From an uncultured Nitrospinota bacterium (lineage in GTDB: Bacteria; Nitrospinota; Nitrospinia; UBA9942), in assembly GCA_964391545.1 (NCBI GenBank), contig CAYMMR010000032.1:1-14649 (forward strand): a stretch of DNA of 14,649 nt, in the 5' to 3' direction. The position numbers were made by a program, and so were the translations under genes. A model generated the notes under the pieces. That model saw only the letters and a program-made list of their open reading frames with translations. It searched no databases and had not been told where the DNA came from. Below are positions 1 to 13,314 of this stretch, piece by piece; the stretch's first letter is position 1; each line of letters begins with the position of its first letter.

Positions 1-133
1 CTTGACCCTTCCGAATAAACTCCTCCGCCTTATCGTCTATCTCATAAAGCTCGTTATTCTTTATGTCATATATGTAAGGCTTTTCCAGTTTTTTGAGGGA
101 GCAGTGGGGAGAGAGCCTTAAAAATCTATTCAT
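1..133 (-). CDS. Partial CDS whose N-terminus lies in the window and continues beyond the left edge. The N-terminus looks like the PqqD/RRE-type leader-binding domain that opens many radical-SAM RiPP maturases.
   Basis: Reverse complement of 1..133 begins with ATG (131-133) and reads MNRFLRLSPHCSLKKLEKPYIYDIKNNELYEIDDKAEEFIRKGQ with no stop. The pattern xYDIxNNELYEIDDxAxEFI resembles the beta-strand/helix start of RRE-containing rSAM maturases (AlbA/SkfB-like). It is missing from the ORF track only because fewer than 60 aa are visible. Confidence 0.45.
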   Translation of the reverse strand, partial: MNRFLRLSPHCSLKKLEKPYIYDIKNNELYEIDDKAEEFIRKGQ

Positions 134-326: not shown

Positions 327-635
327 TTATTCTTCCATTATCCTGTGGAGCAAAATAAAACCGCCGCACGGGGGGGCGATGCCGTAATGCTTTTCGTCTC
401 TGTAATCGCATCCATCGCTTAAAAAATCACACCTCTTACAGAGTATCTCCATAAGGATCGAGTCATATTTAAATACAGAAAGGCAATCTTTTTTACCGGG
501 ATTATTTGCAGGGAGAGGGAAAAATCTCTCGAAAAATTTGAATCCTTCGCAGCACAAATCTTCATTCTTAGATTCTTTGTAATATTTGCAGTATCCCTTG
601 CAGATTAAATCTATAAGATGCTTTTTTGTATCCAT
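327..635 (-). CDS. Cysteine-rich hypothetical protein of about 102 aa (9 Cys: CxxxC, CC, CxxC, DGC, PPCGG). Possible metal-binding protein or radical-SAM substrate/partner.
   Basis: ORF 327..644. The track's first M is a TTG lying inside the upstream GGGTCAAGG palindrome; the first ATG gives MDTKKHLIDLICKGYCKYY.... It lies between two radical-SAM genes on the same strand. No family was recognised. Confidence 0.55.
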   Translation of the reverse strand: MDTKKHLIDLICKGYCKYYKESKNEDLCCEGFKFFERFFPLPANNPGKKDCLSVFKYDSILMEILCKRCDFLSDGCDYRDEKHYGIAPPCGGFILLHRIMEE

Positions 636-636
636 A

Positions 637-708
637 GGATTCAAGGGGGCAAGGGTTCAAGGGTAAGTGCCTTTCACTTGAATCCTTGACCCCTTGACCC
701 CTTTTTCA
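637..708. repeat. Imperfect hairpin of GGGTCAAGG-type modules between the radical-SAM stop and the Cys-rich gene start, followed by a T-run on the plus strand.
   Basis: ggattcaagggggcaagggttcaagggtaagtg cctttc acttgaatccttgaccccttgacccc ttttt. The left arm overlaps the TTG pseudo-start of ORF 327..644. Confidence 0.6.
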
Positions 709-767: not shown

Positions 768-2180
768 TCATACTCTTTCACCCCCTTTCAATCCCCTTAC
801 CTCTTGAACAACCTCTATGTTTATCATAGAAATGCTGCGTCCTCTTGCATAATCCTCTATGCTCTTTACCGCCTTCTTCCTTACAAAAAAGGGGATCTTC
901 ATTACTGCATCCTTTGCGTCCTGACTCCATGAGAGGCTTAATTCAGGCATAACACTTTCAGCCTCGGCATGGGCCGATTCCACATCTGTGAGGCTAAAAC
1001 CTCGCGCTACATTTTTATCGGATGGCTCATAAGCGCAGAACGGCTCTTCGGATAAATAATTTCCTGTTGCGCTGTATGCCCTCGCCCTGCATCCCTCGCA
1101 GATATGCTTAAACTCGCATACACCGCATTTTCCCTGGAGGAGGTCGGGATTTCTTAGATTTTTAAACACTAAAGAATCGTTCCATATATCCTGAAACCTC
1201 TCTTTTCTTATATCCCCTGCCTTTGCAGGCAGATAGCCGCAGGGAAATACTTCCCCTCTGTTAGATATAAAACATACCCCTGTCCCTGCAAGACACCCCT
1301 TTGTCATCGCAGACAGCCCGTGAGCAGACGCCTTACCTTCCCACTTTCCACCGAGGGACGAGATGGAATTTTTTGGCGTAGTTACCTTGTCCACATGCCC
1401 TGCTTTCAACTGCGTTCCGTGAGGGACGAATGGAGTGGGTTTTAGCCCCGCCTTTTTTTCCGATAGAATCCTCTCCGCCCTTACCCTGAAATAATGAGGG
1501 GCACAGGTAGCCTTCAAATCTATAGAGTGGAGCTTCGACTGGTCGTAAAACCAGTGGAGTATCTTTTCATATTCATCGGCGCTTACCATCTGGTCCTCTG
1601 CGATATCTACGCCGCAACCGACAGGCACAAGTAAAAAGGTATGCAGGGCATCCACACCAAGCTCCAATGCCAAATCCAGAATTTTAGGAAGTTCTTTAAA
1701 ATTATGTTTTGCAATTGTAGTATTTATCTGGGTTGATACGCTAAGCTCTATTAAATTTTTTATGCCTTCTATTGCCTTGTTAAACGAGCCGGGGATTGCG
1801 CGAAATTTATCGTGGGTCTCCGCCCTTGCCCCATCGAAGCTGATAGATATTCTGGCAAAACCTATATCCTTTATCCTCTTTGCCATTTCTTTATCAATCA
1901 TTGTCCCGTTTGTGGCAAGGGAGAGCCTCAACCCCTTTTTAATGCCGTATTCGGCTATCTCAAAAATATCCTTTCTGAACAGAGGCTCGCCGCCTGAAAG
2001 GACAAGTATGGGGTTTGAAAACTCTGCAATCTGTTCGATAAGGTCAAAGCCTTCCTGCGTAGACAATTCCACCTTTGACAATGAGGACTCAGGAACAGCC
2101 CTGCAATGAAGACATCTCAGGTTGCACCCTTTCGTAGTCTCCCAGAATATTAATCGTGGTATATATTGACGCTCTCCCAT
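768..2180 (-). CDS. Radical SAM/SPASM-domain enzyme (AhbC/AhbD/NirJ/PqqE-like) with a C-terminal extension of roughly 65 aa resembling the PCP_red domain (C-terminal domain of protochlorophyllide reductase BchB, PF08369).
   Basis: N-terminal PRLIFWETTKGCNLRCLHCRAV carries the CxxxCxxC motif. SGGEPL glycine-rich SAM motif. ISISFDGARAETHDKFRAIPGSF block. C-terminal Cys cluster GKCGVCEFKHICEGCRARAY (SPASM auxiliary cluster). The tail ...SWSQDAKDAVMKIPFFVRKKAVKSIEDYARGRSISMINIEVVQEV matches the W..A...L.KIPfFVR....E.fA...G...It.ev PCP_red pattern. Confidence 0.88.
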   Translation of the reverse strand: MGERQYIPRLIFWETTKGCNLRCLHCRAVPESSLSKVELSTQEGFDLIEQIAEFSNPILVLSGGEPLFRKDIFEIAEYGIKKGLRLSLATNGTMIDKEMAKRIKDIGFARISISFDGARAETHDKFRAIPGSFNKAIEGIKNLIELSVSTQINTTIAKHNFKELPKILDLALELGVDALHTFLLVPVGCGVDIAEDQMVSADEYEKILHWFYDQSKLHSIDLKATCAPHYFRVRAERILSEKKAGLKPTPFVPHGTQLKAGHVDKVTTPKNSISSLGGKWEGKASAHGLSAMTKGCLAGTGVCFISNRGEVFPCGYLPAKAGDIRKERFQDIWNDSLVFKNLRNPDLLQGKCGVCEFKHICEGCRARAYSATGNYLSEEPFCAYEPSDKNVARGFSLTDVESAHAEAESVMPELSLSWSQDAKDAVMKIPFFVRKKAVKSIEDYARGRSISMINIEVVQEVRGLKGGERV

Positions 2181-2185
2181 ATCTT

Positions 2186-2340
2186 TTATAATACTGCGAA
2201 ACTTTTTTTGGGCGACTTTTTATTTTTCCTTTTGCTCCAACCCCCCTCAATCCCCCCTTTTTTAAAGGGGGGAGGAAGGGGGGTTAAAATAGGACAAAAG
2301 AAAAAATAACGGAAGCGAAAAAAAAGGTTTCGCAGTATAA
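2186..2340. repeat. MITE-like intergenic element of about 155 bp, with 22-bp terminal inverted repeats and a central G6/C6-rich perfect-ish hairpin.
   Basis: Left TIR ataatactgcgaaacttttttt (2189-2210) pairs with right TIR aaaaaaaaggtttcgcagtataa (2318-2340). The centre (2239-2287) is aacccccctcaatccccccttttttaaaggggggaggaaggggggtt. No ORF is inside. Confidence 0.5.
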
Positions 2341-2342
2341 AC

Positions 2343-3554
2343 TTACATCCCCATCTTCTCCCTCGCCTCCTGCAGCACATCTTCCGTTATCTCTTTATAG
2401 CCCTTCTCTACAGCGTAACCGATTATCGCCTTTTTTGCCATATTTCTTACAAAAGGCGGTATCTTCTCGATACGGGACAGCGCCTCTTTTGTCCAGGGCA
2501 ATTCCTGACTTCCGACTTCTGTCTCCTGTCTTCTGTCTTCTTTTAATATATGCTTCTGTGTAACGATAAGAAGATTACAGGACGACTGAATCAGCAGATT
2601 TTCCGTTACGGAGCCCAAGTCAAGCCCGTTATCCGTATGATAACCGACTTTACCTGCTGCTGCCAGAGAAGGATTTTCCTTCTCTATATACTCCAGCACC
2701 TTATCGAACGGCCTGCCCGAAAAAAGGATCGTTTTTATATCCAGCCCCTCTTCTTTTGCAATTTTTTTTGCATTGTCCAGATGCCCCTGATATATCTTCT
2801 CCAGTCCTTTATCGATTATCTCGTCATGCAGCTTCTCCTGCTCTTTAAATTTAAAGAGCTTTCCGGCTTCCTCGGATAGAACCCCTGCAATACTCCTGAA
2901 GGCGACAACATGAAATTGAGGGTCGAATACAGCCACTGCCTCGAGGGGAAGATTAAATGCCTTTGCCAATGCAGCGCATCTTTTAACGGCAGCAAAGGAT
3001 TGGGGGCTTCCGTCAACCGCTACAATAATCTTTCTATCCCACTTTTCGGTTTTTTTTACAACCAGGATGTCGCTTTTAGACCTCCTTGCCACTCTCGATG
3101 TTACGCTTCCTATAAGGCTCCTTTTCAACGCACCAAGACCAAGCAAACCTATTATTACCAAATTGTATCGGCTTTCATTTATATCCTTCACAATCCGGGA
3201 ATAATTTTTGCCTTCCATGGTCTTCCGCTGAAATGCCACTCCGGCGCTCTTGCACATATTCTCGAAATGGTCAAGATATGAATCCGATATTATCTGCAAT
3301 CCCTTCGTTATCAGCGTGTCATGGATTTTTCTTTGACGGTCCAACTCCTCCTCTTCTTGATATTCGGGCGGAAGGCCGCTCTCCATCTGAGAAAATCTCT
3401 GGTCGTGAAGCCTGGCAGCATAAACATGATTTCCAATCAGAGTGGAATTGAATTTTCTTGCCAGAGAAATCCCGACATCTATGGCAAGATTGGAATGCTC
3501 CGAGTTGTCTACAGGGATTAATATGGTTTTAAATTGGCCGTTAAAATCCGACAT
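2343..3554 (-). CDS. Tandem universal stress protein (two UspA domains, both with an ATP-binding G-x2-G-x9-GS motif) fused to a C-terminal PCP_red-like domain.
   Basis: USP1 runs TILIPVDNSEHS...GLLGLGALKRSLIGSVTSRV. USP2 runs KIIVAVDGSPQS...GKVGYHTDNGLDLGSVTENLL. The tail PWTKEALSRIEKIPPFVRNMAKKAIIGYAVEKGYKEITEDVLQEAREK is the same motif as the tail of the neighbouring radical-SAM protein. A strong SD (GAGGAGGAGG) lies 4 nt upstream of the ATG. Confidence 0.85.
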   Translation of the reverse strand: MSDFNGQFKTILIPVDNSEHSNLAIDVGISLARKFNSTLIGNHVYAARLHDQRFSQMESGLPPEYQEEEELDRQRKIHDTLITKGLQIISDSYLDHFENMCKSAGVAFQRKTMEGKNYSRIVKDINESRYNLVIIGLLGLGALKRSLIGSVTSRVARRSKSDILVVKKTEKWDRKIIVAVDGSPQSFAAVKRCAALAKAFNLPLEAVAVFDPQFHVVAFRSIAGVLSEEAGKLFKFKEQEKLHDEIIDKGLEKIYQGHLDNAKKIAKEEGLDIKTILFSGRPFDKVLEYIEKENPSLAAAGKVGYHTDNGLDLGSVTENLLIQSSCNLLIVTQKHILKEDRRQETEVGSQELPWTKEALSRIEKIPPFVRNMAKKAIIGYAVEKGYKEITEDVLQEAREKMGM

Positions 3555-3573
3555 CTACCTCCTCCTCAAAAAT

Positions 3574-3586
3574 AGGAATAATTCCT
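3574..3586. promoter_or_regulatory. 13-bp palindrome AGGAATAATTCCT at the predicted +1 / 5'UTR of the USP-PCP_red gene. Candidate operator.
   Basis: AGGAAT/ATTCCT arms are perfect and sit immediately downstream of the predicted -10 and upstream of the SD. Confidence 0.35.
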
Positions 3587-3615
3587 AAAATATCTCAAAA
3601 TATCAACTTTGTCAA
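3587..3615 (-). promoter_or_regulatory. Sigma-70-like promoter for the USP-PCP_red gene: TTGACA-N17-TATTTT on the minus strand.
   Basis: Minus-strand TTGACA = plus 3610-3615. A 17-nt spacer follows, then TATTTT = plus 3587-3592. This sits about 35 nt upstream of the ATG at 3554. Confidence 0.4.
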
Positions 3616-3628
3616 GGGATTATTTTCA

Positions 3629-3675
3629 CCTCACCTTAATCCTCTCCCCAAAGGGGAGAGGGAAGGGTGAGGGGG
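3629..3675. repeat. GC-rich imperfect hairpin (cctcaccttaatcctctcccc / aaa / ggggagagggaagggtgagg) between the receiver-gene stop and the USP promoter.
   Basis: Stem of about 20 bp with a 3-nt loop. It lies downstream of the stop of the minus-strand receiver gene (3679) and may act as its terminator, although no U-run follows on the minus strand. Confidence 0.45.
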
Positions 3676-3678
3676 AAA

Positions 3679-4047
3679 TTATTTTTCCCTATTCTTAAAC
3701 ACATCTCTTATCGTATTCCTTAATTCACTCAAGTCGGATGATTTTACCACATAGGCATCGGATGCCCATACCCTGAAATCCTGCTTATAATCGCTGTAGG
3801 CTGTGCACATCACTACAGGTATCTTGGCATCGGTCTCTCTTAATTTCCTTAAAAATTCTATGCCGTCCATCCCCGGCATCTTAACATCGAGCGTAATCAA
3901 ATCCGGATAGGATTCTTTCATTTTAATCATAGCATCTTCGGCATCCGAGGCTGTAATAACCTCATATCCCTCGTCTTCAAGCTCCTCCTTATATAGTATT
4001 CTTATATTCTCCTCATCATCGACTACAAGTATCCTCTTTTTTTCCAT
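3679..4047 (-). CDS. Stand-alone response-regulator receiver domain (CheY-like), cognate partner of the upstream GAF histidine kinase.
   Basis: VVDDEE acid pocket, phospho-acceptor LITLDVKMPGMDG, VMCTAY and YVVKS motifs. The track start MGGIM uses a TTG, so the ATG giving MEKKRILVV at 4045-4047 was chosen. A G-rich SD-like stretch (GGGGGG) lies upstream. Confidence 0.88.
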   Translation of the reverse strand: MEKKRILVVDDEENIRILYKEELEDEGYEVITASDAEDAMIKMKESYPDLITLDVKMPGMDGIEFLRKLRETDAKIPVVMCTAYSDYKQDFRVWASDAYVVKSSDLSELRNTIRDVFKNREK

Positions 4048-4062
4048 AATACCCCCCAAAGA

Positions 4063-4135
4063 TAAGCAATGAGCAATGAGTGCCGAGCAATGAGTCTCAT
4101 TACTCGTTGCTCATTGCTCGTTGCTCATTGCTTTT
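4063..4135. repeat. Roughly 70-bp near-perfect palindrome built from the GCAATGA(G) heptamer. The right arm lies inside the last 11 codons of the histidine kinase.
   Basis: agcaatgagcaatgagtgccgagcaatgagtctcattactcgttgctcattgctcgttgctcattgc. The right arm encodes the repetitive C-terminal tail ...[10 protein letters not shown] of the kinase. Confidence 0.7.
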
Positions 4136-6058
4136 TCTTTGCCTTCTCGGCAGATTAATAATGAATGTGGCGCCTTCGCCGACCCTGTTATTTATCTCTA
4201 TCGTTCCTCCGTGGCTCTCGACTATCTTCCTGCTTAACGAAAGTCCGAGACCCGTCCCGTATTTTTTAGTCGTAAAAAAGGGATTAAATATATTCTCTAA
4301 AATATCGGACGGTATCCCGCCGCCGGTATCGCTTATGCTTATCGTTACACCTTCCTCGCCGCTCAGAGTCTCCGTCTTTATTGACATAACCCCACCCTTC
4401 CCTGTCATAGACTCCACTGCATTATATAAAATATTGGTAATAACCTGCTTTATTTGAGGAGGGTCAATGCTTAAAGGACGAATTGCATCCGACATATATT
4501 TTTTAATTTCTATGCCGCTCTCCCAGAATGTATGCTCATAGAACGACAATAGCTCTTCGATTATGCCGTTTATATCGTTTTCCGAAAAATTAGGCTTTAT
4601 ATCCCTCGAATAGTTGAGTATATCCTTGAGGAGTCTTTCCAGCCCCTCCACCTCGCTGATTATTATGCTTGCATAGCTTTTCTCCTCGGATGTCGGCTCG
4701 TATTTTTCGGAGAGCCTCCTTGCAAATCCGCCGATAGTTACCAGAGGATTTTTTATCTCGTGGGCAAGCTCTGCTGCAAGCTCTCCAAGCGCCGAAAGCC
4801 TCTCCGACTGCACAACCTGCTGCTGCGCGGAGACGATTTCCCTATTCGCCTCCTTTAATTTTGCAAAAAGTTTCGAGTTTTCGATCGCCCATCCTGCATG
4901 AACTGCAAACCTTACGAGTGTCTGAAGGTCTTCATCCATTATGGGCTTGCCGGTATAGATATTATCCACTACTATAACGCCAAGCACATTTTCCTTTGCA
5001 ATAATCGGAACCGTGGCAAAGCTTTTAACCCCGCTCTTATTAATAATATCATGATTCACCCTCCTATCGTTCCATGCATCCTTTATATTGAAAGGCTTCT
5101 TTTCCATGACTGTCAGGGCTATAACCCCGCTCTCCACGGCTATAGGCAGTCTTATCCCTTTTATAAATTTATCATACATGGATTCTTTTTTTGCAGGCGC
5201 CTCCCCCTGAGATATAAGCCATGAAGACAGTTCGGTAATATGCGGCATCCTGCTCCATATCTGCTGCGCCTCTTCCCCAGAATCCGGACCAAGCCCCATC
5301 ATGCCCTGAATAGTGTCTGTCTTCTCATTAACAAGCAAGAGTCCTGCCCTGTTAAATCCGAATGCTCCGCCTGCGGTAACACAGCTTAATATTATCCTCA
5401 GCAATCTATCGAGATTAACGGTAGTCTGCATCGCAATGCTCATCTCATAGAGCATGGACAGCTCCCTCAATCTCTGTGTCGCCTTTTCATAGAGTTGCGC
5501 ATTTTTTATTATCCCGGATACCTGATCCGCTATTGTCGCCAGCAGCTTTATATCGTCCTCCGAATAATCGGTTTCTTTAATATTCTGGGTATATATAACG
5601 CCTATGCAGCAGTTCCTATCCATAATCGGAACCACAAGGACGGATTTAAACCTCTCCTCTTCCGTTACCGGGAAATGAATAAAGCGGGGGTCGCTTGCAG
5701 CATCCTTAAGCGACGCCGCCTTTTTGTTCTGGCATACCCACCCTGAAATCCCTTCGCCCATTCTAAGTATGACCTTGTTGATTGAAGCAGGATTTAAGCC
5801 CCTTGTAGCCTTTAACATAAGATTTTTACCTTCTTCGTCAACGAGGAGTATCGAGCAGGCATCTGCATTGGTATATTTTACGATTACCTCGACAATAGAA
5901 TTGAGCCTGTCTTCCAATTCCAGCGATGAATTGGCAATCCTGCTTACCTCGCTTAAAATCTCGAGCCGGTTGACCCCGCCGATTTTTTGCGCGGCTTTTT
6001 CTACCCTTCTTAAATGAGATTTTGATTTGGCCGGTTTCATATAAAAATATAGGGTCAT
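4100..6058 (-). CDS. Cytoplasmic sensor histidine kinase with GAF-GAF-HisKA-HATPase_c architecture.
   Basis: Two GAF-like blocks (…[13 protein letters not shown]…; …[12 protein letters not shown]…). H-box [21 protein letters not shown] boxes ISDTGGGIP...[20 protein letters not shown]. No TM segments. The track start at 6079 is a TTG inside a palindrome, so the true start is probably ATG 6058 ([10 protein letters not shown]) or 6040 (MKPAKS). Confidence 0.88.
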
Positions 6059-6115
6059 GGGGCAAGGGGCATGGGTCAAGAAAAACCTGACCCTTGCTAC
6101 TTGACCCTTGACCCT
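6051..6115. repeat. Imperfect palindrome of GGGTCA(A/T)GG modules spanning the HK start and the glgA stop.
   Basis: Left arm agggtcatggggcaaggggcatgggtcaag, loop aaaaac, right arm ctgacccttgctacttgacccttgaccct. The right arm encodes the glgA C-terminal residues GSRVK*. The left arm creates the spurious TTG-initiated MTHAPCP extension of the kinase ORF. Confidence 0.65.
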
Positions 6116-8736: not shown

Positions 8737-8757
8737 AAAATGAAGTCTTAATGCAAT

Positions 8758-8823
8758 AATAGTTAAGTTGTTGAGTGGTTGAGTTGTTAAACTACTCAAC
8801 TACTTAACAACTCAACTATTTAA
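8758..8823. repeat. Imperfect palindrome of GTTGAGT / ACTCAAC modules upstream of the PAS histidine kinase.
   Basis: atagttaagttgttgagtggttgagttgtt aaa ctactcaactacttaacaactcaactattt. Confidence 0.6.
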
Positions 8824-8835
8824 ACCCACTAATCG

Positions 8836-10356: not shown

Positions 10357-10568
10357 TGTCAAAGTGTCAGAGTGTCAAAGTTTTAAACTAATGGATAGTC
10401 CCACAAATAGCTTTACCATAGTTTGTCATTCTCGCGAAAGCGGGAATCCAGTAAAATCAAAGACTGGATTCCGCATCGAGTGCGGAATGACAGTAAAGGA
10501 ACTTTAGAGACACTCTACTAACTATGACACTTTGATACTTTGATACTCTGACACTGCTTTGAGGTTTT
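10356..10568. repeat. Complex nested palindromic element between the HK and RR genes. Outer inverted arms are made of GTGTCAAAG modules. The inner 67-nt core is symmetric and can fold into a four-way junction.
   Basis: Outer left arm 10356-10380 gtgtcaaagtgtcagagtgtcaaag. Outer right arm 10525-10555 tgacactttgatactttgatactctgacac. Inner core 10425-10491 GTCATTC-tCGCgaaaGCGgga-ATCCAG-taaaatcaaaga-CTGGAT-TCCGCAtcgagTGCGGA-ATGAC. Confidence 0.65.
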
Positions 10569-11250: not shown

Positions 11251-11257
11251 ACTGATA

Positions 11258-11340
11258 ATAGGTAAAGAGGCAAAGAGGTTAAGAGGCTAAAAGGTAAAGG
11301 CAATGCCCCTTGACCTCTTTGCCTTTTAACCTTTTTACCT
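11258..11340. repeat. Imperfect palindrome of AGGNNAAG modules between the convergent tatA and REC-GGDEF genes. Likely bidirectional terminator region.
   Basis: Left modules aggtaaag aggcaaag aggttaag aggctaaa aggtaaagg. Centre caatgcccc. Right arm ttgacctctttgccttttaacctttttacct is the reverse complement of the same modules and is T-rich at its 3' side. Confidence 0.55.
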
Positions 11341-12277
11341 ATTCACCCCTCAAGTCCTTCACATACTTGCTCCCTTTAAGCGATTTGGCATACTTCTTTA
11401 AATCCGCGGCAATGGCGCTTGCCTCTCCGAGGTGGTTTATCTTTCTCTTTTCGTTCGTCACCACTGCGACAGAGATAGTCATAATCGGGAATCTCTCCTT
11501 TTCCCCTTTTCTATTCACTGAATCCATATATCCTCTCACCCTGTCCTCCTCGTCATAAAAGGTGGTTATCAAGAGGTCAAAGTATTTAATAATCTGCCTG
11601 CATGCGCTTTCTACAAGCTCAACCGGCACTATGAATACAAAATCATCGCCGCCTACATGCCCGACAAATGTATCCGGGCAATTTAACTCCCTGACGGCAT
11701 TTGTTACGACACGGGCTGTCATTCTTAGTATCTCGTCGCCCCTGCTAAAACCGTATTTGTCATTATATGGCTTGAAATTATCGAGGTCTATGTAGGCAAG
11801 GGCAAACTTTTTATTCAAATCAACCCTCTTTTGCCCCTCTTTCATAATAGAGTTATTGCCCGGCAGGCGGGTAAGGGGATTGGCATCCAGTTCTCTTGCC
11901 GCTCTTGAAAAAGAAAGAGAAACCCTTAAGGTTAAGTCGTCGGAATTAAGAGGTTTTATAATATAATCGTCTGCCGGAATGGAGTCCCAGACGATTTTAC
12001 CCCGTTCAAATCCGGATGGTATAAGCAGTATCACAGGAAGGTGTCCATATACGGTATCGGACTTTAATTGACGGCAGAGTTCATCCCCTTTTATAGAGGG
12101 CATTTCAATGGCAATTATTATCAAATCCGGAGGCTCGTTGTATATTGCATCGAGCGCATTTTTACTGTCTTCCGTATAATACGCAAGATAGCCCTTTTCC
12201 CCGAGAGTGTTCCGAATAAATTCTGCGGTTCGAGAATCGTCATCTATTATTAAAATTCTCTTTTTACTTTCGGACAT
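11339..12277 (-). CDS. Response regulator with REC plus GGDEF (diguanylate-cyclase) domain. The active-site motif is GGDDF rather than GG(D/E)EF.
   Basis: REC: ILIIDDD, LIIIAIEMPSIKG, IIKPL. GGDEF domain: ALAYIDLDNFKPYNDKYGFSRGDEIL ... TFVGHVGGDDFVFIVP. Confidence 0.88.
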   Translation of the reverse strand: MSESKKRILIIDDDSRTAEFIRNTLGEKGYLAYYTEDSKNALDAIYNEPPDLIIIAIEMPSIKGDELCRQLKSDTVYGHLPVILLIPSGFERGKIVWDSIPADDYIIKPLNSDDLTLRVSLSFSRAARELDANPLTRLPGNNSIMKEGQKRVDLNKKFALAYIDLDNFKPYNDKYGFSRGDEILRMTARVVTNAVRELNCPDTFVGHVGGDDFVFIVPVELVESACRQIIKYFDLLITTFYDEEDRVRGYMDSVNRKGEKERFPIMTISVAVVTNEKRKINHLGEASAIAADLKKYAKSLKGSKYVKDLRGE

Positions 12278-13161: not shown

Positions 13162-13180
13162 TTTATTTATAAAAACACCG

Positions 13181-13314
13181 GAACACGAATTACACTAATA
13201 TACGAATGGCACGAATAAAAAAATCGAAATTGAGGCAATTTTTTAATTTTAATCTTTGATTTTTAATCTTTGATTTTCATTCGTGTAATTCGTCCATTCG
13301 CGCTATTCGTGTTC
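13181..13314. repeat. About 35-bp inverted repeats of ACGAAT(A/G) modules flanking a roughly 60-bp AT-rich spacer with a tandem 13-mer (ttttaatctttga x2).
   Basis: Left arm gaacacgaattacactaatatacgaatggcacgaat. Right arm attcgtgtaattcgtccattcgcgctattcgtgttc, whose reverse complement shares the outer 10 and inner 6 nt with the left arm. Direct repeat at 13246-13271. Confidence 0.55.

What the first reader, a model, noticed from the sequence alone, without database searches (positions are those of the whole stretch)
768..3554. Radical SAM/SPASM enzyme and tandem-USP protein share a C-terminal PCP_red (BchB C-terminal-like) domain: candidate tetrapyrrole-handling pair
Two adjacent same-strand genes end in near-identical modules of about 45 aa (…KIPFFVRKKAVKSIEDYARGRSISMINIEVV… and …KIPPFVRNMAKKAIIGYAVEKGYKEITEDVL…). 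These match the PCP_red domain known from the C-terminus of protochlorophyllide reductase subunit B, where it caps the tetrapyrrole substrate pocket. The radical-SAM N-terminus (RLIFWETTKGCNLRCLHCRA) and its SPASM Cys cluster resemble, from memory, the AhbC/AhbD/NirJ/PqqE branch. Two of those enzymes, AhbD and NirJ, act on tetrapyrroles. As far as I know, a SPASM enzyme carrying its own tetrapyrrole-capping domain, beside an ATP-binding double-USP protein with the same domain, is not a characterised system. It could be a variant alternative-heme/sirohaem-derived pathway step, or a stress-linked tetrapyrrole chaperone or sensor.
Basis: partly seen in the sequence, partly recalled or inferred. 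Interest (0 to 1): 0.8.

Follow-up and report, generated by a model that had tools for sequence, protein, structure and literature searches.

The report
AhbD-type haem synthase with USP partner
The radical-SAM gene is an AhbD-type anaerobic haem b synthase carrying an extra small helical domain (PCP_red), and the double universal-stress protein gene next to it carries the same domain. This gene pair is conserved in nitrite-oxidising phyla and has not been described, but what the shared domain does is still unknown.

Summary
Two adjacent minus-strand genes, 768-2180 and 2343-3554, each end in a PF08369 (PCP_red) domain scoring 47.4 and 55.8 bits against a gathering score of 32.5. The tails are only 40% identical, not near-identical.

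The radical-SAM enzyme is AhbD-type:
- Its best family match is haem b synthase (459.5 bits), against 208-211 bits for AhbC and NirJ.
- It has CX3CX2C and all eight SPASM cysteines.
- It is about 60% identical to unfused proteins that sources name haem b synthase.
- In two Nitrospirota genomes (one a 64% relative), a PCP_red-bearing homologue overlaps a fused ahbA-ahbB siroheme decarboxylase gene.

The partner is a tandem universal stress protein (USP) with the ATP-binding motif in both halves.

USP-PCP_red followed by rSAM/SPASM-PCP_red recurs in Nitrospinota. It also occurs in 76 of 76 informative Nitrospirota loci, but there the rSAM is a different AhbD/NirJ2-like clade, 32-34% identical.

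The idea that PCP_red caps the tetrapyrrole pocket is not supported. The BchB helix that covers protochlorophyllide (residues 398-420) lies outside PF08369 (about 470-520). PCP_red also occurs as arrays of 2-6 copies and has no conserved haem-ligand residue.

I read it as a haem synthase with a tethered docking module and a nucleotide-sensing accessory partner. This is a new variant of a known enzyme, of moderate interest.

The parts
768..2180 (-). Gene for an AhbD-type radical SAM/SPASM enzyme with a C-terminal PCP_red domain (470 aa)
   Evidence: ORF. Pfam Radical_SAM + SPASM + PCP_red. Best NCBIfam match is TIGR04545 haem b synthase, 459.5 bits. About 60% identical to proteins that sources name haem b synthase.
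1668..2141 (-). Radical SAM core (aa 14-171), including CX3CX2C (C19, C23, C26)
   Evidence: motif read from the translation. AF2 pLDDT is about 90-97 over most of this region (lower at its N-terminal end).
1296..1454 (-). Clade-specific insertion of about 50 aa (aa 243-295) between the barrel and the SPASM domain
   Evidence: It splits the TIGR04545 match into two stretches. It is shared with unfused homologues such as P0059 and is absent in P0025 and P0026. AF2 pLDDT is below 50 for 254-300.
1023..1295 (-). SPASM domain with seven of the eight auxiliary-cluster cysteines (C296, C314, C352, C355, C361, C364, C382); the eighth is C226
   Evidence: Spacing X17, X37, X2, X5, X2, X17 matches the full AhbD SPASM motif given in PMC10452713. 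Only the first spacer is long (X69), because of the insertion. Pfam SPASM hit.
930..1022 (-). Flexible linker (aa 387-417) that tethers the PCP_red domain
   Evidence: AF2 pLDDT is below 50 in 378-387, 390-395 and 403-408.
795..929 (-). PCP_red domain of the rSAM enzyme (aa 418-462)
   Evidence: PF08369, 47.4 bits. Predicted helices 420-427, 431-447 and 455-464, with block-mean pLDDT 73-94.
2181..2342 (-). 162-nt spacer between the two genes, folding into one long hairpin
   Evidence: RNA MFE -77.2 kcal/mol, z = -10.3, 0 of 200 shuffles as good. In the syntenic locus L001 the two genes are only 3 nt apart, so this is an insertion. No terminator-like site was found between the genes.
2343..3554 (-). 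Gene for a tandem USP protein with a C-terminal PCP_red domain (403 aa)
   Evidence: ORF. Pfam Usp x2 + PCP_red. AF2 mean pLDDT 82.3. Best structural matches are the tandem USPs Rv2623 and TTHA0350-ATP.
3054..3533 (-). USP domain 1 (aa 8-167) with the motif G136-x2-G139-x9-G149-S150
   Evidence: The motif residues are invariant in the 12-sequence cross-phylum alignment A1.
2550..3032 (-). USP domain 2 (about aa 175-335) with the motif G301-x2-G304-x9-G314-S315
2361..2495 (-). PCP_red domain of the USP protein (aa 354-398)
   Evidence: PF08369, 55.8 bits. Predicted helices 356-362, 367-384 and 391-401.
3555..3678 (-). Spacer upstream of the USP gene with a sigma-70-like site
   Evidence: TTGACA-17-TATTTT at 3615->3587, 10 of 12 matches. 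This is a consensus match only. In L001 the response-regulator and USP genes are 4 nt apart.
3679..4059 (-). Single-domain response regulator; conserved upstream neighbour in Nitrospinota
   Evidence: Pfam Response_reg, 94.9 bits. Same position in L001-L004.
4100..6079 (-). Double-GAF histidine kinase; conserved upstream neighbour in Nitrospinota
   Evidence: Pfam GAF x2, HisKA, HATPase_c. Synteny in L001-L004.

Best explanation
Gene 768-2180 encodes an AhbD-type radical-SAM haem b synthase. [quoted passage not shown] It uses the SAM-binding [4Fe-4S] cluster and two auxiliary SPASM clusters.

Compared with characterised AhbDs it has two additions: a disordered insertion of about 50 aa, and a three-helix PCP_red module on a flexible linker of about 30 aa.

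The gene upstream on the same strand encodes a tandem universal stress protein of the ATP-binding type, ending in the same module. The two genes form a functional pair.

My preferred mechanism is inferred, not shown. PCP_red would be a portable docking module rather than a porphyrin lid. Through it, the USP protein would be recruited to the haem synthase or to a shared partner. The last step of haem synthesis would then be tuned, protected or supplied with electrons according to nucleotide or redox state. In longer relatives, extra PCP_red copies and a rubredoxin-like domain fit an electron-transfer or protective role.

In Nitrospinota the pair sits directly behind a double-GAF histidine kinase and a single-domain response regulator, which suggests signal-controlled expression.

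Shown: the domain content, the AhbD-type sequence features, the conservation of the pair, and the link of the fused enzyme clade to ahbAB.
Inferred: the catalytic activity, the physical interaction, and the role of PCP_red.
For: Enzyme identity:
- TIGR04545 AhbD scores 459.5 bits, well above AhbC (208), NirJ (211) and PqqE (126).
- CX3CX2C and all eight SPASM cysteines are present with the published AhbD spacing.
- The protein is 58-63% identical over about 82% of its length to hundreds of proteins that JGI names 'heme b synthase / AdoMet-dependent heme synthase'.
- Those relatives score 471-489 bits on the same model, so the whole clade sits just under the cut-off of 500.
- In L094 (P0016, 64% identical, carries PCP_red) and L098, the gene overlaps a fused ahbA-ahbB. 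That gene passes both NCBIfam cut-offs: 256/251 and 262/256 bits against 140/125.
- A Nitrospinae MAG also encodes a fused AhbA-AhbB, at 272/256 bits.
- Unfused homologues lie beside multihaem cytochrome clusters.
- The fold search returns SPASM enzymes such as BlsE, SkfB, PqqE, SuiB and anSME.

The pair:
- The same order occurs in Nitrospinota loci L001-L004, where the true gap is 3 nt.
- P0003/P0123, P0004/P0139 and P0015/P0146 have matching longest-contig lengths, consistent with each pair lying on one contig.
- In Nitrospirota an rSAM-PCP_red gene follows the USP gene in 76 of 80 loci. The other four contigs end too early to tell.
- The USP core is 52-61% identical across phyla, with both G-2x-G-9x-G-S motifs invariant.
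- It superposes on the ATP-bound tandem USPs TTHA0350 and Rv2623.

PCP_red as a docking module:
- It is tethered by a low-confidence linker.
- It is gained and lost patchily within the AhbD clade.
- It occurs in 2-6 tandem copies in many proteins. Of 80 long PCP_red proteins, 41 carry Usp, 23 a rubredoxin-like domain and 8 SPASM.
Against: - No ahb, hem or cysG gene lies in the 14.6-kb window or in the 27-33-kb syntenic contigs.
- The AhbD model score is below its curated cut-off.
- No biochemical data exist for this clade.
- The Nitrospirota partner rSAM is a different, more divergent clade: 32-34% identical, with NirJ2 about equal to AhbD at 316-349 bits. Conservation of the pair there does not directly vouch for this enzyme's function.
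- The pairing is not universal. Fused AhbD occurs without an adjacent USP (L094, L095/96, L098). USP-PCP_red occurs without a downstream rSAM (L009, L099).
- Nothing here tests a physical interaction. I had no access to model coordinates or to a multimer prediction.
Confidence: 0.55

Rival explanations
1. PCP_red is itself a tetrapyrrole-binding lid or carrier. On AhbD it would close over coproheme or haem. The USP-PCP_red protein would be a coproheme/haem chaperone or sensor that delivers substrate or removes product.
For: - Outside the USP proteins and PCP_red-only arrays, the domain's main catalytic hosts are BchB of DPOR and AhbD/NirJ2-like rSAM enzymes, both of which act on tetrapyrroles.
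- The AhbD tail motif KIPFFVRKK scores against BchB models.
- A nearly invariant Arg (R19 of the domain alignment) could in principle bind a propionate.
- C-terminal tags on BchB perturb DPOR activity.
Against: - In DPOR, the element described as covering or contacting protochlorophyllide is helix 398-420. PF08369 aligns to about 470-520.
- No His, Cys, Met or Tyr is invariant in the domain. Only W, A, P and A are invariant, with F and R nearly so.
- Proteins made of 2-6 tandem PCP_red copies fit a scaffold better than a lid.
- The tail is dispensable in close AhbD relatives.
Confidence: 0.25
2. The rSAM enzyme is not a haem synthase. It would act on another substrate: a quinone intermediate (as the Nitrospira neighbourhood might suggest), or the Cys-rich small protein encoded just downstream.
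For: - In 43 of 63 informative Nitrospirota loci the pair lies downstream of mpqE (NF052510, 410 bits against a cut-off of 335) and a B12-radical-SAM gene.
- The decarboxylase and the C1 hydroxylase of methyl-plastoquinone synthesis are unresolved in Nitrospira.
- In the window and in L001-L004, a conserved Cys-rich ORF and a second rSAM/SPASM gene follow the AhbD gene.
Against: - The mpqE link is confined to one Nitrospirota sublineage and is absent in 20 of 63 loci.
- It involves the other rSAM clade, not this one.
- Methyl-plastoquinone genes were reported as not found outside Nitrospirota.
- The window enzyme has no N-terminal peptide-recognition domain, whereas the downstream rSAM has its own N-terminal extension.
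- Peptide-maturase models score 80-161 bits, against 459.5 for AhbD.
- Fused homologues are coupled to ahbAB.
Confidence: 0.12
3. The adjacency and the shared domain are coincidental. Two unrelated genes each happen to carry a common small domain.
For: - Each type of gene is sometimes found without the other.
- In this window a 162-nt hairpin element separates them.
Against: - 76 of 76 informative Nitrospirota loci, and all Nitrospinota loci seen, keep the same order and strand, often with gaps of 2-6 nt.
- The order holds across two phyla and two rSAM clades.
- PCP_red is rare: 2316 clusters among 1.84 billion representatives.
Confidence: 0.05

Closest known systems
AhbD (haem b synthase, TIGR04545; characterised in Desulfovibrio vulgaris and Methanosarcina barkeri)
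   Same: - Radical SAM CX3CX2C motif.
- Full eight-cysteine SPASM motif with the published spacing.
- Best-scoring family match.
- Homologues that carry the same tail are encoded next to ahbA-ahbB.
   Different: - An insertion of about 50 aa before the SPASM domain.
- A C-terminal linker plus a PCP_red domain.
- A score 40 bits below the curated cut-off.
- A conserved tandem-USP neighbour.
- No other ahb genes nearby in this window.
- The host phylum is Nitrospinota, not a sulfate reducer or an archaeon.
BchB/ChlB C-terminal domain of dark-operative protochlorophyllide reductase (PF08369; NMR structure 2KRU)
   Same: The same domain of about 45 aa, with the W...A...P-F-x-R...A signature and a predicted three-helix fold.
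   Different: - No nitrogenase-like body.
- The domain sits on a flexible tether or in multi-copy arrays.
- In DPOR the substrate-covering helix (398-420) is a separate element upstream of this domain.
Tandem-type ATP-binding universal stress proteins (M. tuberculosis Rv2623, T. thermophilus TTHA0350)
   Same: - Two USP domains.
- The G-2x-G-9x-G-S/T motif in both.
- Top structural matches: Foldseek E 2.7e-17 for 3cis and 3.5e-15 for 3ab8; target-normalised TM 0.71 for 3cis and 0.83-0.84 for 2jax and 3ab8 (query-normalised 0.50-0.56).
   Different: - Long conserved helical inserts (aa 47-104 and 214-268).
- A C-terminal PCP_red domain. Relatives carry up to 5-6 PCP_red copies and a rubredoxin-like domain.
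- A fixed genomic partner.
NirJ2-type / divergent AhbD-like rSAM-PCP_red of Nitrospira
   Same: - The same architecture: rSAM + SPASM + PCP_red.
- The same upstream USP-PCP_red partner.
   Different: - Only 32-34% identical.
- No insertion.
- Followed in 69 of 70 loci by a CopD/DUF4149-like membrane protein.
- In one sublineage, preceded by mpqE and a B12-rSAM gene.

Membership tests
AhbD haem b synthase (TIGR04545) | Radical SAM CX3CX2C cluster motif | tested here: met
   C19-x3-C23-x2-C26 in the translation; Pfam Radical_SAM, 87.3 bits.
AhbD haem b synthase (TIGR04545) | Full SPASM motif C-X20-33-C-X17-C-X36-37-C-X2-C-X5-C-X2-C-X17-35-C (PMC10452713) | tested here: met
   C226, C296, C314, C352, C355, C361, C364 and C382 give spacers 69, 17, 37, 2, 5, 2 and 17. 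All eight cysteines are present. Only the first spacer is longer, because of the insertion.
AhbD haem b synthase (TIGR04545) | Score at or above the curated equivalog cut-off (500 bits) | tested here: not met
   459.5 bits in two stretches. Related proteins that sources name haem b synthase, and the ahbAB-linked homologues, score 471-489 bits. The shortfall therefore applies to the whole clade.
AhbD haem b synthase (TIGR04545) | Closer to AhbD than to the paralogues AhbC, NirJ and NirJ1, or to peptide maturases | tested here: met
   AhbD 459.5; TIGR04053 364; NirJ2 318; NirJ 211; NirJ1 209; AhbC 208; PqqE 126.
AhbD haem b synthase (TIGR04545) | Genomic association with other siroheme-pathway genes | tested here: inconclusive
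   None in the window or in L001-L004. PCP_red-bearing homologues in L094 and L098 overlap a fused ahbA-ahbB. A Nitrospinae MAG has ahbA-ahbB.
AhbD haem b synthase (TIGR04545) | Conversion of Fe-coproporphyrin III to haem b | not testable with these tools
   Needs anaerobic enzymology or complementation.
PCP_red domain (PF08369) | HMM score above the gathering threshold (32.5 bits) | tested here: met
   47.4 bits (rSAM) and 55.8 bits (USP).
PCP_red domain (PF08369) | Small helical fold | tested here: met
   Three helices predicted in both proteins, with block-mean pLDDT about 73-94 (rSAM) and 80-85 (USP).
DPOR subunit B (BchB/ChlB) | Nitrogenase component 1-type body preceding the domain | tested here: not met
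   Only the last 50-70 residues of the BchB models align. Scores are 25-43 bits against cut-offs of 490-912.
Tandem ATP-binding USP (MJ0577/Rv2623 type) | Two PF00582 domains, each with G-2x-G-9x-G-(S/T) | tested here: met
   Two Usp stretches. G136/G139/G149/S150 and G301/G304/G314/S315 are invariant in A1.
Tandem ATP-binding USP (MJ0577/Rv2623 type) | Structural similarity to solved tandem USPs | tested here: met
   Foldseek: 3cis E 2.7e-17; 3ab8 (ATP complex) E 3.5e-15, with target-normalised TM 0.84.
Tandem ATP-binding USP (MJ0577/Rv2623 type) | Nucleotide binding | not testable with these tools
   Inferred from the motif only.
RiPP-type SPASM peptide maturase | N-terminal peptide-recognition (PqqD-like) domain and a best match to a maturase family | tested here: not met
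   The rSAM core starts at residue 9. Maturase models score 80-161 bits.
Methyl-plastoquinone (mpq) gene cluster | Adjacency to mpqE or mpqA and the B12-rSAM gene | tested here: not met
   Absent from the window. Seen only with the Nitrospira-type pair, in 43 of 63 loci.

The most novel reading that the evidence does not exclude
PCP_red is a portable module that defines a previously unrecognised accessory system for the oxygen-sensitive radical-SAM haem synthase in nitrite-oxidising bacteria (Nitrospinota and Nitrospirota). A nucleotide-binding tandem USP, in long forms also carrying a rubredoxin-like domain and several PCP_red copies, would dock on the AhbD-type enzyme through PCP_red. There it would gate, protect or re-reduce the enzyme, or hand over coproheme or haem. 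This would couple the final step of haem synthesis to energy or redox state. It would also give a first function to the C-terminal domain of BchB outside photosynthesis.
Probability: 0.25. Interest if true: 0.7.

Novelty: new variant of a known kind. Interest (0 to 1): 0.5.

Why it matters
AhbD is the oxygen-independent terminal enzyme of haem synthesis. How it receives and releases its reactive substrate and product, and what its physiological electron partners are, is not settled. A conserved dedicated partner protein would give a concrete handle on those questions.

The hosts matter too. Nitrospina and Nitrospira are the main nitrite oxidisers in the oceans and in engineered systems. They live with oxygen, yet here they appear to rely on an oxygen-sensitive radical-SAM haem enzyme.

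The finding would also give a testable role to PF08369, a domain known for many years only as the tail of BchB. And it would add a rare case of a universal stress protein with a defined client.

Tried and rejected
1. A riboswitch or known RNA in the locus: Rfam found nothing at gathering thresholds.
2. A solved AhbD structure for comparison: none is in the PDB. The best sequence hits are BlsE and PqqE.
3. Whether the rSAM tails of the two clades are each other's closest relatives, which would indicate a single fusion event: unresolved. Mean identity is 31% between the two rSAM tail types, against 33-37% between either type and the USP tails.
4. An NJ tree of the AhbD core: fused and unfused proteins interleave, so the tail does not define a clade. 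My regex mislabelled P0018 and P0021 as unfused; Pfam shows they carry the domain.
5. AF2 docking of the tail on the barrel: only pLDDT and secondary structure are returned, and the linker has low confidence, so no contact information was obtained.
6. Reading the original DPOR structure papers (Moser 2013, Bröcker 2010): not held. The assignment of the cap therefore rests on PMC12022308 and PMC4071322.
7. Context of a PCP_red array protein (P0245): it turned out to be a truncated USP-PCP_red, followed by an unrelated secreted protein.
8. The second rSAM downstream as AhbC: rejected. AhbC scores 74 bits, and the protein has an N-terminal extension and resembles SkfB-type maturases.
9. Literature on the haem pathway in Nitrospinota: nothing found.


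Full report
OBSERVATION

The window has two consecutive minus-strand ORFs exactly at the stated coordinates: 768..2180 (470 aa) and 2343..3554 (403 aa).

Pfam finds the following:
- In the first: Radical_SAM at 14-171 (87.3 bits), SPASM at 296-355 (33.8 bits) and PCP_red/PF08369 at 418-462 (47.4 bits; gathering score 32.5).
- In the second: two Usp domains (133.6 bits) and PCP_red at 354-398 (55.8 bits).

Both tails also align to the extreme C-terminus of solved BchB chains and to the isolated-domain NMR entry 2KRU. The one overstatement is 'near-identical': the two tails share 17 of 42 residues (40%).

THE RADICAL-SAM ENZYME

Against NCBIfam the best model is TIGR04545, haem b synthase AhbD, at 459.5 bits. 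The other scores are:
- TIGR04053: 364.
- NirJ2: 318. By my recollection this is the older name for AhbD-type proteins.
- NirJ: 211. NirJ1: 209. AhbC: 208. PqqE: 126.

The match falls 40 bits short of the curated cut-off. It is split in two by an insertion at about residues 243-295.

The protein has CX3CX2C (C19, C23, C26). It also has all eight cysteines of the full AhbD SPASM motif described for the M. barkeri and D. vulgaris enzymes (PMC10452713): C226, C296, C314, C352, C355, C361, C364 and C382. The spacers X17, X37, X2, X5, X2 and X17 match exactly. Only the first spacer is lengthened, by the insertion.

A search of 5.8 billion proteins returned about 22 clusters with the same fused architecture. 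Those with a source name are Nitrospinota or Nitrospirota MAGs. It then returned thousands of unfused proteins, 58-63% identical over about 82% of the query. Several of these are named 'heme b synthase' or 'AdoMet-dependent heme synthase' by JGI. These relatives also score 471-489 bits on TIGR04545. The sub-threshold score is therefore a property of the clade, not of this gene.

AlphaFold2 gives a confident barrel. The insertion is disordered (254-300, pLDDT below 50) and so is the linker (378-408). The three-helix tail has block-mean pLDDT 73-94. Foldseek returns SPASM enzymes such as BlsE, SkfB, PqqE, SuiB and anSME. No AhbD structure exists in the PDB.

LINK TO HAEM

The strongest functional evidence comes from relatives.
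- In two Nitrospirota genomes, a PCP_red-bearing homologue overlaps the start of a gene for a fused AhbA-AhbB siroheme decarboxylase. The loci are L094 (P0016, 64% identical to the window protein) and L098.
- That gene passes both NCBIfam cut-offs: 256/251 and 262/256 bits against 140/125.
- A Nitrospinae MAG also encodes a fused AhbA-AhbB, at 272/256 bits. The siroheme route therefore exists in the window's phylum.
- Two unfused homologues lie next to multihaem cytochrome c clusters.

Reviews record that AhbD also serves as the anaerobic coproheme decarboxylase in organisms that lack the other Ahb enzymes (PMC13564367). The absence of ahb genes from this 14.6-kb contig and its 27-33-kb syntenic relatives is therefore not an argument against the assignment.

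THE PARTNER

The 403-aa protein is a tandem USP.
- In a 12-sequence alignment spanning Nitrospinota, Nitrospirota, Binatia and others, the core is 52-61% identical to the window protein.
- The ATP-binding motif G-2x-G-9x-G-S is invariant in both halves: G136/G139/G149/S150 and G301/G304/G314/S315.
- The AF2 model (pLDDT 82) superposes best on the tandem USPs Rv2623 and ATP-bound TTHA0350.
- Relatives of 550-700 aa carry two or three PCP_red copies and a rubredoxin-like domain.

THE PAIR

In Nitrospinota loci L001-L004 the order is double-GAF kinase, receiver, USP-PCP_red, then AhbD-PCP_red. The public gene call for the rSAM gene there starts at an internal Met. The true start, which includes CX3CX2C, lies 3 nt after the USP stop codon.

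A scan of one genome per GTDB species found at least 552 relatives of the USP protein. In the 80 loci fetched, almost all from Nitrospirota, an rSAM/SPASM-PCP_red gene follows immediately in 76. The other four contigs end too soon to tell.

That Nitrospirota rSAM is a different clade. It is 32-34% identical to the window enzyme, lacks the insertion, and scores about equally on NirJ2 and AhbD (316-349 bits). So two divergent AhbD-like enzymes each carry PCP_red and each sit behind a USP-PCP_red gene.

The pairing is not absolute:
- Fused AhbD occurs without a USP neighbour (L094, L095/96, L098).
- USP-PCP_red occurs without a downstream rSAM (L009, L099).

Within the AhbD clade, fused and unfused proteins interleave on a distance tree. 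The tail is therefore an accessory that is gained or lost.

WHAT PCP_red IS LIKELY TO DO

The papers I could read say otherwise. [quoted passage not shown] That helix is residues 398-420, acting in trans (PMC12022308). PF08369 aligns to about 470-520 of the 525-residue R. capsulatus chain and to 473-531 of a 536-residue BchB chain, 8vqi_B. That is some 50 residues further on.

A profile of the domain finds 2316 clusters among 1.84 billion representatives. Most of the 150 best-scoring hits have 2-6 tandem copies. Of 80 long hits, 41 carry Usp, 23 a rubredoxin-like domain, 8 SPASM and 6 Radical_SAM. The invariant residues are W, A, P and A, with F and R nearly invariant. No His, Cys, Met or Tyr is conserved.

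Taken together, these features fit a docking or scaffolding module better than a porphyrin lid: a flexible tether, dispensability, multi-copy arrays and the lack of a ligand residue. A direct ligand role is not excluded, because the catalytic hosts are all tetrapyrrole enzymes.

MECHANISM PROPOSED

The enzyme makes haem b from Fe-coproporphyrin III. The USP protein is an accessory factor, recruited through PCP_red, that couples this step to nucleotide or redox state. In long forms it may also pass electrons. In Nitrospinota, expression is probably under the adjacent GAF kinase and receiver. Only the sequence-level statements are shown. The activity, the interaction and the direction of regulation are inferred.

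RIVALS

- A tetrapyrrole-binding lid or chaperone role for PCP_red: confidence 0.25.
- A non-haem substrate: confidence 0.12. In 43 of 63 informative Nitrospirota loci the pair follows mpqE and a B12-rSAM gene. Two steps of methyl-plastoquinone synthesis are unresolved in Nitrospira. However, this concerns the other rSAM clade and one sublineage only, and the pathway was reported as absent outside Nitrospirota.
- Coincidence: confidence 0.05.

NOVELTY

I found no paper mentioning PCP_red/PF08369 in this context, nor AhbD together with a USP partner. The enzyme is a member of a known kind. The tail and the dedicated partner make it a new variant. Interest is moderate. It would rise if the pair proves to be a control or protection system for an oxygen-sensitive haem synthase in nitrite oxidisers.

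Noticed in passing
window 2181-2342, 4055-4150, 8740-8835, 11251-11345, 13165-13312, 10357-10500, 645-767: Almost every intergenic spacer holds a strong hairpin with its own sequence, several built from a short motif repeated in tandem followed by its reverse complement. Z-scores run from -3.6 to -10.3. The 162-nt spacer between the USP and rSAM genes folds at -77.2 kcal/mol, and it is absent from the syntenic locus L001, where the genes are 3 nt apart. This could be a genome-wide family of spacer or terminator elements, or small insertions.
   Followed up: partly
window 327-644 (-) and 1-133 (-); L001 11605-13225: Directly downstream of the AhbD gene lies a conserved Cys-rich ORF (105 aa here, 143 aa in L001) with no family match. 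It is followed by a second radical SAM/SPASM gene with an N-terminal extension of about 95 aa that looks PqqD/RRE-like by eye. Its best PDB match is the peptide maturase SkfB. This may be a peptide-modification cassette. It runs off the start of the window.
   Followed up: partly
L010-L089 (Nitrospirota), e.g. L066 13656-14165: In 69 of 70 informative Nitrospirota loci the rSAM-PCP_red gene is followed, often within 3 nt, by a membrane protein of about 170 aa with weak CopD/DUF4149 similarity. This makes a conserved three-gene module there. No counterpart is present in the window.
   Followed up: partly
L066 6690-9560 and 42 other Nitrospirota loci: mpqE (the methyl-plastoquinone C2 methyltransferase, 410 bits against a cut-off of 335) and a B12-binding radical SAM gene related to slr0320 lie on the same strand just upstream of the USP/rSAM pair. 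This holds in 43 of 63 informative loci. The decarboxylation and C1-hydroxylation steps of that quinone pathway are unassigned in Nitrospira.
   Followed up: partly
window 3679-6079 (-): A double-GAF histidine kinase and a single-domain receiver sit directly upstream of the tandem USP. By my recollection this arrangement resembles the DosS/DosT-DosR-Rv2623 hypoxia module of mycobacteria. Rv2623 is the best structural match of the USP protein.
   Followed up: no
L001-L004 gene calls (P0010-P0013) and P0001: The public gene calls for the Nitrospinota AhbD-PCP_red start at an internal codon and omit the CX3CX2C motif (425 or 434 aa instead of about 456-470 aa). This would make the proteins look like non-radical-SAM fragments in databases.
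   Followed up: yes
L094 7471-8610 and L098 7095-8234: A geranylgeranyl reductase family gene lies upstream of the AhbD-PCP_red/ahbAB pair in both Nitrospirota loci.
   Followed up: no
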